The notes below the pieces were generated by a model. It ran no database searches, was not told where the DNA came from, and worked only from the letters and a program-made list of their open reading frames with translations. Made by a program: the position numbers and the translations under genes. A DNA stretch of 64,000 nt from Escherichia phage phi92. Location: the sequence record NC_023693.1; one strand, given 5' to 3'. Shown here in pieces: positions 3,827 through 4,584 of this stretch (the first letter of the stretch is position 1; every line of letters begins with the position of its first letter).

Positions 3827-4309
3827 ATGGAACAACAAAAAGATAATACTATTGCAAAATTTGCTCGTCCAGAAGTAATGGTTGAAATTGATCTGGATGA
3901 AGGACGCAGTGTAAAATTTAGAGTTCTCAAGTGGAGTCCAACTAAAGTTTTTGAAAGGATTCCAGAACTAGGTAGTGTACTAGCTGTTCCTATGACAATG
4001 TATAATACTGCTCTTATGTCAGCAGACGAAGATCTAGAAGCTCGTATTGCTATGGCGCTGATCCAATTATTCAGTGGTCTGGAAGAAAAAAACTTAGCCG
4101 CATTCTTACGTAAAATTTTAGATGAAGTTTACACAGAAGCAGGTCACAGTGTTTCCGATAATTTTGATGAATTGTTTTTTGCTCACCCAGAATTAGTTGT
4201 TGACTTAGCTGCAAAAGTTCTTGAGGTGAACTATGCCCCTTTTTTCAAACGAGGTTTCGGAAAACTGTTGACCCAATTTCAAGGAATAGAGACTCTAGCG
4301 AAGAGTTAA
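3827..4309 (+). CDS. tail assembly chaperone (gpG-like)
   Basis: 160 aa acidic protein between the tube and tape-measure genes; contains a slippery heptamer near its 3' end. Confidence 0.55.
   Translation: MEQQKDNTIAKFARPEVMVEIDLDEGRSVKFRVLKWSPTKVFERIPELGSVLAVPMTMYNTALMSADEDLEARIAMALIQLFSGLEEKNLAAFLRKILDEVYTEAGHSVSDNFDELFFAHPELVVDLAAKVLEVNYAPFFKRGFGKLLTQFQGIETLAKS
4240..4246 (+). other. candidate -1 programmed ribosomal frameshift site (T TTT TTC)
   Basis: X_XXY_YYZ heptamer in the chaperone reading frame (codons CCT TTT TTC); the -1 frame is open from 4225 to 4584. Confidence 0.45.
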
Positions 4310-4584
4310 GTCCGGCAATTAAATCAGCAATTGAAATTGCCTCACAAACCCTTAGCTTGACATGGTATGAAGTAATTCTTTGTAAGGTAATTAAGAATAC
4401 CTCCGAAACCTTGTCCTCGTTAGATAATTATGGTGTAGATTATCTACTTAAAATTTATGAATATTTAACATTCGAAGATTATGTACAAGATCTTCACGTT
4501 AAAGATGCGGATATTAAACGTGGTCAACAGAGAACAATAAGAGAACTGGATACGGCTATGAAAAAATTAATTCCAGATTCATAA
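4246..4584 (+). CDS. -1 frame C-terminal extension of the tail assembly chaperone (gpGT-like fusion)
   Basis: ORF in the -1 frame relative to 3827-4309 and overlapping its 3' end with no stop from 4225; conserved position between tube and tape measure. Confidence 0.45.
   Translation, partial: QTRFRKTVDPISRNRDSSEELSPAIKSAIEIASQTLSLTWYEVILCKVIKNTSETLSSLDNYGVDYLLKIYEYLTFEDYVQDLHVKDADIKRGQQRTIRELDTAMKKLIPDS

What the first reader, a model, noticed from the sequence alone, without database searches (positions are those of the whole stretch)
4225..4584. Candidate -1 programmed frameshift producing a chaperone G-T fusion
The slippery heptamer T TTT TTC (4240-4246) lies in the 3' part of the tail assembly chaperone ORF, and the -1 frame is open from 4225 to 4584, matching the separate 75 aa ORF at 4357-4584. 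This is the conserved position, between tube and tape measure, of the gpG/gpGT frameshift of tailed phages.
Basis: partly seen in the sequence, partly recalled or inferred. Interest (0 to 1): 0.5.

Follow-up and report, generated by a model that had tools for sequence, protein, structure and literature searches.

The report
Unannotated tail-chaperone −1 frameshift site
This E. coli phage almost certainly makes a long form of its tail assembly chaperone by slipping back one base at a conserved TTTTTTC. The trick is well known in tailed phages, but public records of this phage group do not annotate it.

Summary
The window comes from a Justusliebigvirus, a phi92/phAPEC8-like E. coli myovirus. The gene order is sheath, tube, tail assembly chaperone (3827-4309, Pfam Phage_TAC_15), a 75-aa "hypothetical" ORF, then tape measure.

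T_TTT_TTC (4240-4246) is in the correct phase. The -1 frame is open from 4225 to 4584.

Comparison makes a frameshift the only economical reading:
- The heptamer is invariant in every relative examined that has it, down to about 22-30% protein identity. This includes 24 distinct IMG/VR loci.
- Synonymous-codon identity peaks at 0.86 over the site, against 0.50 for the gene overall.
- The -1 frame is always open for 103-141 codons.
- The conserved T domain starts upstream of any possible start codon. The first start falls at codon 26-81, inside the domain, and has no ribosome-binding site.
- The 16 codons after the chaperone stop evolve as protein in the -1 frame.
- The Felix O1-like phage Moogle carries an annotated join at the same GGAGG-N13-TTTTTTC. 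Its fusion protein aligns with the window's across the junction.

The predicted product is GT, 252 aa, join(3827..4246,4246..4584). I found no conserved downstream RNA structure. An upstream Shine-Dalgarno-like GAGG is common but not universal.

This is an ordinary new member of a known kind. Its main value is as an annotation correction.

The parts
3304..3783 (+). Tail tube gene (context: upstream neighbour)
   Evidence: phrog_280 1.8e-36; Pfam PF11681 (KPP10_Orf10 / Phage_Tube_PhiTE) 4.5e-06, above its cut-off. Annotated as tail tube or virion structural protein in relatives.
3787..3806 (+). Terminator-like hairpin followed by a T-run, between the tube and chaperone genes (context)
   Evidence: Scan hit with an 8-bp stem. 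Annotated as a terminator at the same place in phAPEC8.
3827..4309 (+). Short chaperone form G (TAC-N): 160 aa, 18.1 kDa, from zero-frame translation
   Evidence: Pfam PF21822 Phage_TAC_15 at 1.6e-22 (80.8 bits, cut-off 22); phrog_3840 'tail assembly chaperone' at 4.4e-54. Translation; mass.
4223..4226 (+). Internal Shine-Dalgarno-like GAGG (GAGGTG), 13 nt upstream of the heptamer; a possible dnaX-type stimulator
   Evidence: GAGG, GGAGG or GGAG lies 13-14 nt upstream in most relatives, including Moogle. It is GAAG in the phiTE-like lineages and absent in the Aeromonas phage. The Glu codon here is GAG although this genome uses GAA for 77% of Glu codons.
4237..4243 (+). Overlapping alternative heptamer C_CCT_TTT, present only in the Stephanstirmvirinae-like lineages
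   Evidence: In phase. Replaced by G_CTG_TTT (not slippery) in Vequintavirinae. A shift here would give the same protein sequence as a shift at 4240-4246.
4240..4246 (+). Slippery heptamer T_TTT_TTC, the proposed -1 shift site
   Evidence: In phase. Invariant in the window's relatives L003-L007, L009-L013, L015-L022, L025, Moogle, and 34 IMG/VR loci (24 distinct). It sits at the peak of synonymous conservation.
4253..4265 (+). Invariant GGTTT(C) 6 nt downstream of the heptamer. It encodes Gly-Phe in frame 0 and Arg-Phe-Arg in frame -1, and could form a weak 5-bp hairpin.
   Evidence: GGTTT is invariant in 18 loci. For the hairpin, 88.6% of cells pair, but no pair changes on both sides, and a +1 slide gives 82.9%. 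Inconclusive.
4246..4584 (+). T part (TAC-C) in the -1 frame: 112 codons plus a TAA stop. A linker spans about 4246-4308 and a conserved helical domain starts at about 4309.
   Evidence: Translation. phrog_16039 at 3.8e-45; phrog_10409 aligns from residue 35, upstream of the TTG. Homologous T domains are found in 342 phage records. Third-position-biased substitution at 4312-4359.
3827..4584 (+). Predicted frameshift product GT: join(3827..4246,4246..4584), 252 aa, 28.8 kDa, junction ...VLEVNYAPFF|QTRFRK...
   Evidence: Constructed; mass and diagnostic tryptic peptides. It aligns across the junction with the GT of Moogle, whose join is annotated.
4357..4584 (+). The 75-aa ORF that gene callers report as a 'hypothetical protein'. 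It is an artefact of the first in-frame TTG, not a separate gene.
   Evidence: No SD within 18 nt upstream. Gene callers place the start at six or more different columns of the same conserved domain. Several RefSeq records leave the region empty.
4604..6583 (+). Tape measure gene (context: downstream neighbour); TTG start preceded by GGAGG
   Evidence: phrog_16051 'tail length tape measure protein', 1329.5 bits. Sequence; annotation.

Best explanation
Most ribosomes translating the tail assembly chaperone gene (3827-4309) terminate normally and make G (160 aa). A minority slip back one base at U_UUU_UUC (4240-4246). The same tRNA-Phe species sits in the P site (UUU) and the A site (UUC), and both re-pair with UUU in the -1 frame. 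Translation then continues from CAA (4246-4248) to the TAA at 4582-4584 and yields GT (252 aa; ...NYAPFF|QTRFRK...).

By analogy with lambda G/GT and P2 E/E+E', the shared N-terminal part binds the tape measure protein. The C-terminal T domain recruits the tube subunit, so tube (and here sheath) polymerisation starts on a tape measure coated with chaperone. The fixed slip frequency sets the G:GT ratio. Neither protein is expected in the virion.

What is shown: the heptamer, its phase and the open frame; their conservation; nucleotide-level constraint at the site; protein-level constraint in the -1 frame upstream of any start codon; and homology to an annotated frameshift.

What is inferred: that the shift is ribosomal; its efficiency (probably a few per cent, since no strong stimulator is present); and the roles of G and T. 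An upstream Shine-Dalgarno-like GAGG 13 nt before the site may raise efficiency in the way it does in dnaX.
For: 1. Gene identity and context. The window is 99.6% identical to Justusliebigvirus phages. The ORF hits Pfam Phage_TAC_15 at 1.6e-22 and phrog_3840 at 4.4e-54, and lies between tube and tape measure.

2. The heptamer. T_TTT_TTC is in phase and invariant in all relatives that have the [P/C]FF motif:
- six Stephanstirmvirinae records, 65-99% DNA identity;
- six metagenomic relatives, 34-61% protein identity;
- seven Vequintavirinae, 25-38%;
- an Aeromonas Plateaulakevirus;
- Moogle;
- 34 IMG/VR loci, 24 of them distinct, with no synonymous variant (CCN/TGY, TTY, TTY) ever used.
Vibrio phage S4-7 has a different in-phase heptamer, A_AAT_TTT, close to the same place.

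3. Nucleotide-level constraint. Synonymous-codon identity among same-residue pairs is 0.86 in 7-codon windows over 4235-4265. It is 0.50 overall and 0.32-0.62 in well-populated windows elsewhere; only the sparse 4- and 87-pair end windows reach 0.75.

4. The -1 frame is open for 103-141 codons in every locus. In the Aeromonas phage it opens only 3 nt before the heptamer. In Av-05, SalP219 and FV3 it opens 9 nt before. This pins the shift to the T-tract.

5. No independent start.
- The window has no ATG, GTG or TTG in the -1 frame between 4225 and 4357.
- There is no SD before the TTG.
- In relatives the first start falls at codon 26-81 after the heptamer, inside the conserved domain.
- The 16 codons at 4312-4359 show pairwise differences of 227:148:409 at codon positions 1:2:3 in the -1 frame, and most sequences have stops in the other two frames.
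- The -1-frame motif FF..RFR(K/R) is conserved immediately after the heptamer in both subfamilies.

6. Homology to an annotated case. Moogle's 'tape measure chaperone' is annotated as a two-piece join with GGAGG-N13-TTTTTTC. BLASTP of the window GT against the Moogle GT gives one alignment across the junction: 29% identity over 164 residues, E = 2e-06.

7. Literature.
- U_UU.U_UU.C belongs to the H_HH.U_UU.Y class, among the most efficient -1 motifs in E. coli, and UUUUUUU is under-represented in genes (PMC4066793).
- The same kind of -1 frameshift at a conserved GTTTTT was argued for the related Vandenendeviridae and Andersonviridae (PMC12846349).
Against: No experimental evidence exists for this phage group. 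No fusion peptide, reporter assay or ribosome profiling was available.

No conserved downstream stimulatory structure was found:
- The single-sequence fold has z = -0.81.
- RNAalifold predicts 0 pairs in the Stephanstirmvirinae-like set.
- It predicts only a weak -6.45 kcal/mol consensus in Vequintavirinae.
- The mini-hairpin at GGTTT has no compensatory changes.

The upstream SD-like motif is missing in the phiTE-like and Aeromonas lineages.

No natural in-frame G-T fusion protein turned up in two searches of 5.8 billion proteins.

Sequence alone cannot separate ribosomal slippage from RNA polymerase slippage on the T6 run, because both give the same protein.

The IMG/VR sample was ascertained with a peptide pattern that includes FF. 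It therefore tests codon choice, not presence of the motif.
Confidence: 0.8

Rival explanations
1. Transcriptional slippage. RNA polymerase stutters on the six-T run (4240-4245) and adds one U in a fraction of transcripts. Standard translation of those transcripts then gives the same GT protein (CCU UUU UUU CAA = P F F Q).
For: The conserved element is a homopolymer run, and its conservation fits either mechanism equally well. No downstream RNA stimulator of ribosomal shifting was found. The review of recoding notes that slippage on T/A runs and T5C5-type motifs occurs in bacteria (PMC5009743).
Against: The run is only six bases and is never longer in any lineage. The second Phe codon is always TTC, although TTT would be synonymous and is the preferred codon (64% in this genome). 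A mechanism that improves with run length would be expected to tolerate or favour T7 or T8. From my own knowledge, efficient slippage by E. coli RNA polymerase usually needs runs of about 8-9. The phase is exactly that of an efficient ribosomal heptamer (PMC4066793). In Vibrio phage S4-7 the site is A_AAT_TTT, a heptamer with no long homopolymer. An SD-like element at the spacing that stimulates ribosomal -1 shifting is common.
Confidence: 0.1
2. The downstream ORF is a separate small gene translated on its own, from TTG 4357 or by re-initiation after the chaperone stop at 4307-4309. No fusion protein is made.
For: Most public records annotate it this way, as a 'hypothetical protein' of 64-85 aa. 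PHROGs holds it as its own family, phrog_16039.
Against: - There is no SD-like sequence in the 18 nt before the TTG.
- There is no start codon between 4225 and 4357.
- Protein-level conservation and codon-position bias begin at the chaperone stop, 16 codons upstream of the TTG.
- phrog_10409 aligns from upstream of the TTG.
- In relatives the first possible start lies at codon 26-81 and would delete up to half of the conserved domain.
- Gene callers disagree on the start, and some RefSeq records call no gene there at all.
- This reading does not explain the invariant heptamer or the synonymous-site peak.
Confidence: 0.04
3. Coincidence. The heptamer and the open -1 frame are by-products of a conserved Phe-Phe motif and of an adjacent coding ORF, and have no recoding function.
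For: In a single genome an in-phase heptamer in a 27-codon overlap is expected about 13% of the time. FF is a conserved protein motif of the chaperone.
Against: Amino-acid conservation does not fix codon choice, yet NNT TTT TTC is used in all 24 distinct IMG/VR loci and in every other relative. From this genome's codon usage, I estimate roughly 10-15% for that exact combination by chance per independent lineage. The -1 frame stays open through linkers of different length and composition.
Confidence: 0.02

Closest known systems
Tape measure chaperone frameshift of Felix O1-like phages (Citrobacter phage Moogle, KM236239; annotated join)
   Same: - Same gene position: tube, then chaperone, then tape measure.
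- Same heptamer T_TTT_TTC in the same protein motif (LEANFGSFF against LEVNYAPFF).
- Same GGAGG/GAGG 13 nt upstream.
- A -1 ORF of similar length (107 codons).
- The GT proteins align across the junction (PMC4319497).
   Different: Only about 29% identity. The phage belongs to a different family and has a smaller genome (88 kb). Moogle's record annotates the frameshift, whereas none of the roughly 25 Stephanstirmvirinae or Vequintavirinae records inspected does.
TAC-N/TAC-NC -1 frameshift proposed for Vandenendeviridae (Pseudomonas phage Adele) and Andersonviridae
   Same: [quoted passage not shown] That paper states these families are related to Vequintavirinae and Stephanstirmvirinae (PMC12846349).
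   Different: That paper does not report the frameshift for Stephanstirmvirinae or Vequintavirinae. In the Stephanstirmvirinae-like phages the base before the T-run is C, not G (CCCTTTTTTC), which creates a second overlapping heptamer. BLAST-level similarity of the chaperone to Pseudomonas Pakpunavirus was not detected here.
Lambda gpG/gpGT (Levin et al. 1993; Xu, Hendrix & Duda 2004, 2013, 2014; as summarised in PMC5009743)
   Same: Two overlapping ORFs between the major tail gene and the tape measure gene. [quoted passage not shown] The presumed role is also the same: G binds the tape measure, T recruits the tube protein, and neither is in virions.
   Different: Lambda uses G_GGA_AAG (from my own knowledge) and is a siphovirus. 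There is no detectable sequence similarity. The window's phage has a contractile tail.
P2 gpE/gpE+E' (Christie et al. 2002; from my own knowledge)
   Same: A myovirus tail chaperone pair made by a -1 shift on a U-rich heptamer (T_TTT_TTG), located between the tube and tape measure genes.
   Different: A different protein family with no detectable similarity. Not tested here.
E. coli dnaX -1 frameshift (upstream SD-like stimulator)
   Same: An internal Shine-Dalgarno-like sequence lies upstream of the heptamer, within the 6-17 nt range used for experimentally demonstrated stimulators (PMC4066793). Here GAGG/GGAGG lies 13 nt upstream.
   Different: dnaX also has a strong downstream hairpin, and none is found here. 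The SD-like element here overlaps conserved Leu-Glu-Val codons and is absent in some lineages. Its function is untested.

Membership tests
Tailed-phage tail assembly chaperone -1 programmed frameshift (G/GT type) | The pair of ORFs lies between the major tail (tube) gene and the tape measure gene | tested here: met
   Tube 3304-3783, chaperone 3827-4309, T 4246-4584, tape measure 4604-6583.
Tailed-phage tail assembly chaperone -1 programmed frameshift (G/GT type) | The upstream ORF is a tail assembly chaperone | tested here: met
   Pfam PF21822 Phage_TAC_15 at 80.8 bits against a cut-off of 22; phrog_3840 at 4.4e-54.
Tailed-phage tail assembly chaperone -1 programmed frameshift (G/GT type) | The second ORF overlaps the 3' end of the first in the -1 frame and lacks its own initiation signals | tested here: met
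   82-nt overlap. No start codon at 4225-4356 and no SD before TTG 4357. The start position is variable and internal to the domain in relatives.
Tailed-phage tail assembly chaperone -1 programmed frameshift (G/GT type) | An in-phase slippery heptamer X_XXY_YYZ lies in the overlap and is conserved among relatives | tested here: met
   T_TTT_TTC at 4240-4246 is invariant across all sampled lineages, and synonymous conservation peaks at 0.86 against 0.50 overall.
Tailed-phage tail assembly chaperone -1 programmed frameshift (G/GT type) | The fusion protein is actually produced, at a low fixed ratio to the short form | not testable with these tools
   Needs mass spectrometry, western blot, a reporter assay or ribosome profiling.
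Tailed-phage tail assembly chaperone -1 programmed frameshift (G/GT type) | Both forms are required for tail assembly and are absent from virions | not testable with these tools
   Needs genetics and virion proteomics. The rV5 proteomics paper does not mention chaperone, tape measure or frameshift.
Felix O1-like / Vandenendeviridae 'GTTTTT' chaperone frameshift lineage | Homology of both the N and C parts, with the shift site at the same alignment position | tested here: met
   The window GT and the Moogle GT align in one segment across the junction (29% identity over 164 aa, E = 2e-06), with the same heptamer and upstream GGAGG. Homology to Pakpunavirus chaperones was not tested directly.
dnaX-type SD-stimulated -1 frameshift | A Shine-Dalgarno-like sequence 6-17 nt upstream of the heptamer, conserved among relatives | tested here: inconclusive
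   GAGG, GGAGG or GGAG lies 13-14 nt upstream in most lineages and in Moogle, and GAG is used despite a 77% GAA preference. The motif is GAAG in phiTE-like phages and absent in the Aeromonas phage, and it overlaps conserved Leu-Glu-Val/Ile codons.
Structure-stimulated -1 frameshift (hairpin or pseudoknot 5-9 nt downstream) | A conserved, stable downstream RNA structure supported by covariation | tested here: not met
   Fold z = -0.81. RNAalifold gives 0 pairs and a weak -6.45 kcal/mol consensus in Vequintavirinae. The 5-bp GGTTT hairpin has no two-sided changes. No Rfam frameshift element matches.

The most novel reading that the evidence does not exclude
The shift site may be part of a compact, ancient signal shared by at least four groups of large myoviruses: Felix O1-like, rV5-like, phi92-like and Plateaulakevirus. 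In that reading it works without a downstream RNA structure. It would rely on an upstream anti-Shine-Dalgarno-pairing GAGG/GGAGG at a fixed 13-14 nt, and/or on the invariant GGTTT(C) 6-9 nt downstream acting as a so far undescribed short stimulator. The doubled heptamer C_CCU_UUU_UUC in the phi92-like lineage would then tune efficiency upward.
Probability: 0.25. Interest if true: 0.4.

Novelty: new member of a known kind. Interest (0 to 1): 0.25.

Why it matters
The practical value is in annotation. At least 340 public phage genomes carry this T domain. They include therapy candidates and the BASEL reference phages. All of the roughly 25 records I inspected do one of two things. Some call it a separate 'hypothetical protein' with an arbitrary start. 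Others leave about 290 nt as an empty gap between the chaperone and tape measure genes. The correct feature here is join(3827..4246,4246..4584).

There is also a modest biological point. The site shows that one heptamer and its context have been held fixed while the proteins diverged to about 22-30% identity, across several phage families. It offers a clean, structure-free U_UUU_UUC site, with a candidate upstream SD stimulator, for studying how G:GT ratios are set in contractile-tail assembly. It does not change any concept.

Tried and rejected
- Downstream stimulatory structure. A single-sequence fold of 4247-4340 gave z = -0.81. RNAalifold on 10 Stephanstirmvirinae-like sequences gave no pairs. 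On 7 Vequintavirinae sequences it gave a weak -6.45 kcal/mol consensus with almost no covariation term. An explicit 5-bp hairpin at GGTTT...AAACC has an invariant 5' arm, no two-sided changes, and a +1 slide that pairs nearly as well. I rejected this as unsupported.
- Rfam scan of 4100-4700. The only hit is a sub-threshold CRISPR-DR35 chance match on the minus strand, 25.1 bits against a gathering score of 35.
- Natural in-frame G-T fusions as independent proof of the fusion. None were found. All G hits are 151-175 aa and all T hits are 64-84 aa.
- Solved structures. There is no relative of GT in the PDB; the best E-value is 0.17.
- AlphaFold2. The T region alone gave a low-confidence all-helical model (mean pLDDT 59.8, pTM 0.27; helices at T residues 23-35, 40-55 and 61-108). 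The first predicted helix lies upstream of the TTG, but the model is too weak to use, and I ran no fold search on it.
- The +1 frame is closed within 10-52 codons in all relatives checked.
- Promoter and terminator scan. Nothing was found inside the T region that would suggest a separate transcript.
- Literature. Searches for a description of this frameshift in phi92-, phAPEC8- or rV5-like phages found none.
- The Vladimirov et al. 2022 paper on T4-like chaperones could not be read.
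Full report
**What the window is.** Region 1800-6600 is 99.6% identical to Escherichia phages Nernie and VivaForever and to Justusliebigvirus alia, among others. These belong to Stephanstirmvirinae, the phi92/phAPEC8-like myoviruses of about 146 kb. The local gene order on the + strand is:
- tail sheath, 1839-3245;
- tail tube, 3304-3783;
- a terminator-like hairpin, 3787-3806;
- tail assembly chaperone, 3827-4309;
- a 75-aa ORF, 4357-4584;
- tape measure, 4604-6583.

The chaperone assignment is firm. It matches Pfam PF21822 Phage_TAC_15 at 1.6e-22 (80.8 bits, cut-off 22) and phrog_3840 at 4.4e-54.

**Checking the observation.** The chaperone's zero-frame codons run ...GCC CCT TTT TTC AAA.... 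This places T_TTT_TTC at 4240-4246 in the canonical X_XXY_YYZ phase. A second in-phase heptamer, C_CCT_TTT (4237-4243), overlaps it. The -1 frame is closed by a TGA at 4222-4224 and is then open to the TAA at 4582-4584, a run of 119 codons. The 75-aa ORF lies in that frame. All coordinates in the finding are correct.

Taken alone in this genome the coincidence is not impressive. In-phase heptamers occur 4.85 times per 1000 codons, so about 0.13 are expected in the 27-codon overlap. Even so, among 61 ORFs of at least 100 aa, this is the only one where a heptamer near the 3' end is followed by a long open -1 frame: 114 codons, against a next best of 34.

**Comparative evidence: the heptamer.** I collected the locus from progressively more distant relatives:
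- five other Stephanstirmvirinae records at 65-79% DNA identity;
- six metagenomic contigs whose chaperone is 34-61% identical;
- seven Vequintavirinae (rV5-, PVP-SE1- and phiTE-like) at 25-38% protein identity;
- an Aeromonas Plateaulakevirus;
- 34 IMG/VR loci, 24 of them distinct.

Every one has T_TTT_TTC in phase at the same alignment position (...NY[A/G/S][P/C]FF...). The -1 frame is open for 103-141 codons in all of them. The IMG/VR scan was seeded with a peptide that includes FF, so it tests codon choice rather than presence of the motif. Even on that test, none of the synonymous alternatives (CCN/TGY, TTY, TTY) is ever used.

C_CCT_TTT exists only in the Stephanstirmvirinae-like group; Vequintavirinae have G_CTG_TTT. 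A shift at either heptamer gives the same protein. Vibrio phage S4-7 lacks the T-run but has another in-phase heptamer, A_AAT_TTT, close to the same place, and also has an open -1 frame of 120 codons.

**Comparative evidence: nucleotide-level constraint.** I used a codon alignment of 18 chaperone genes. Among pairs that share the amino acid, the fraction that also share the codon is 0.50 overall and 0.32-0.62 in well-populated windows along the gene; only the sparse end windows reach 0.75. It rises to 0.77-0.86 in 7-codon windows covering 4226-4265, then falls back to 0.46-0.52.

**Comparative evidence: where the shift must happen.**
- On the upstream side, in the Aeromonas phage the -1 frame opens only 3 nt before the heptamer. 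In Av-05, SalP219 and FV3 it opens 9 nt before.
- On the downstream side, the -1-frame motif FF-x(2-3)-RFR(K/R) is conserved in both subfamilies right after the heptamer.
- Together these confine the frame change to the T-tract.

**The downstream ORF is not a separate gene.**
- In the window there is no ATG, GTG or TTG in the -1 frame between 4225 and 4357.
- The 18 nt before the TTG have no Shine-Dalgarno-like sequence.
- The conserved T domain (L[S/T]P-AI..AI..A..TLSLTWYEVILCKV...) begins at the chaperone's stop codon, 16 codons upstream of that TTG.
- In those 16 codons (4312-4359), pairwise differences among nine diverged sequences fall 227:148:409 on codon positions 1:2:3 of the -1 frame. 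Most sequences have stops in the other two frames.
- In relatives the first possible start codon falls anywhere from codon 26 to 81 after the heptamer, often deep inside the domain.
- Gene callers accordingly report proteins of 64-85 aa starting at six or more different columns. Several RefSeq records call nothing there.
- phrog_10409 aligns to the -1-frame product from upstream of the TTG.

**Link to an annotated case.** Citrobacter phage Moogle is Felix O1-like. [quoted passage not shown] Its record carries a two-piece join for that gene. Its sequence reads ...TTGGAGGCAAACTTCGGAAG TTTTTTC GAGG..., encoding LEANFGSFF, which is the same heptamer with the same GGAGG 13 nt upstream. BLASTP of the window's predicted GT against Moogle's GT gives a single alignment that runs across the junction: window residues 77-214, 29% identity, E = 2e-06 for the pair.

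A December 2025 paper argues on similar comparative grounds for a -1 frameshift at an invariant GTTTTT. It covers the chaperones of Vandenendeviridae (56 alleles from 159 genomes) and 231 Andersonviridae. It notes that these families are related to Vequintavirinae and Stephanstirmvirinae, but it does not report the frameshift for those two groups (PMC12846349). I found no paper in the held library that describes the frameshift for phi92-, phAPEC8- or rV5-like phages. None of the roughly 25 records inspected annotates it.

**Mechanism.** The best-supported model is tandem -1 slippage on U_UUU_UUC. tRNA-Phe in the P site moves from UUU to UUU, and tRNA-Phe in the A site moves from UUC to UUU. 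Decoding then continues from CAA at 4246.
- The product is GT, 252 aa and 28.8 kDa, join(3827..4246,4246..4584), with junction ...VLEVNYAPFF|QTRFRK....
- It is made alongside the major product G, 160 aa and 18.1 kDa.
- In E. coli the A-site tetramers rank A_AA.G >> U_UU.C > U_UU.U.
- H_HH.U_UU.Y heptamers are among the most efficient, and U_UU.U_UU.C shifts at more than 0.1% without any stimulator.
- UUUUUUU is under-represented in genes in all frames. This may explain why the run is always exactly six and is followed by C (PMC4066793).

**Stimulators.** I found no conserved downstream structure. Upstream, GAGG, GGAGG or GGAG lies 13-14 nt before the heptamer in most lineages and in Moogle. 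That is within the 6-17 nt range used for experimentally supported SD-like stimulators (PMC4066793). The Glu codon is GAG although this genome uses GAA for 77% of Glu codons. However, the motif overlaps conserved Leu-Glu-Val/Ile codons. It is GAAG in phiTE-like phages and is absent in the Aeromonas phage. Its role is therefore possible, not shown. The invariant GGTTT(C) 6-9 nt downstream is most simply explained by double coding: Gly-Phe in frame 0 and Arg-Phe-Arg in frame -1.

**Function.** The roles of the two proteins are inferred from lambda G/GT as summarised in PMC5009743. G and the G part of GT coat the tape measure. The T domain recruits the tube protein. Neither protein is in the virion.

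**Rivals.**
- Transcriptional slippage on the T6 run would give the same protein and cannot be excluded from sequence. The run is short and is never lengthened despite a synonymous, preferred TTT codon. The Vibrio relative uses a heptamer that is not a homopolymer. I give this rival about 0.1.
- Independent initiation of the small ORF conflicts with the start-codon, SD and conservation data. I give it about 0.04.
- Pure coincidence conflicts with the codon-level invariance. I give it about 0.02.

**Verdict.** This is a new, unannotated member of a well-known kind of recoding signal, homologous to the site already annotated in Felix O1-like phages. Its value is mainly as an annotation correction for several hundred genomes, and as a compact U_UUU_UUC site with a candidate upstream SD stimulator. 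Interest is low to moderate.

Noticed in passing
window 3787-3806 (T-run to about 3813): A terminator-like hairpin (8-bp stem, readable on both strands) sits between the tube gene and the chaperone gene. The same place is annotated as a terminator in phAPEC8. It may lower transcription of the chaperone and tape measure genes relative to sheath and tube.
   Followed up: partly
window 4604 vs about 4736: Public records disagree on the tape measure start. RefSeq alia uses the TTG at 4604, which is preceded by GGAGG 7 nt upstream. Nernie and others start 132 nt later.
   Followed up: no
GenBank MG0656xx records (hits H8-H11, H21, H22 and others): About 23 unannotated records named 'Campylobacter phage' (host Campylobacter jejuni) are 99.4-99.8% identical to this E. 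coli Justusliebigvirus, or carry rV5-like chaperones. The host label looks doubtful.
   Followed up: no
L008 (MZ501063.1, phage EmilieFrey / Bas61) 650-1132: The chaperone gene is annotated as a second 'tail tube protein' in this BASEL reference phage.
   Followed up: no
L014 (Vibrio phage S4-7) 1303-1309: A distant relative has A_AAT_TTT instead of T_TTT_TTC near the same place, with a 120-codon open -1 frame. Its record annotates an overlapping 106-aa ORF instead.
   Followed up: partly
L013 (phiTE) 1700-2357 and L025 (Aeromonas 4L372XY) 1867-3024: In these two relatives extra genes, and in phiTE an annotated terminator, lie between the T ORF and the tape measure gene. The chaperone pair is therefore not always directly adjacent to the tape measure.
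   Followed up: no
window 4259-4293, minus strand: A sub-threshold Rfam match to CRISPR-DR35 (25.1 bits against a gathering score of 35, E = 0.012). It lies inside the coding overlap and is almost certainly chance.
   Followed up: no
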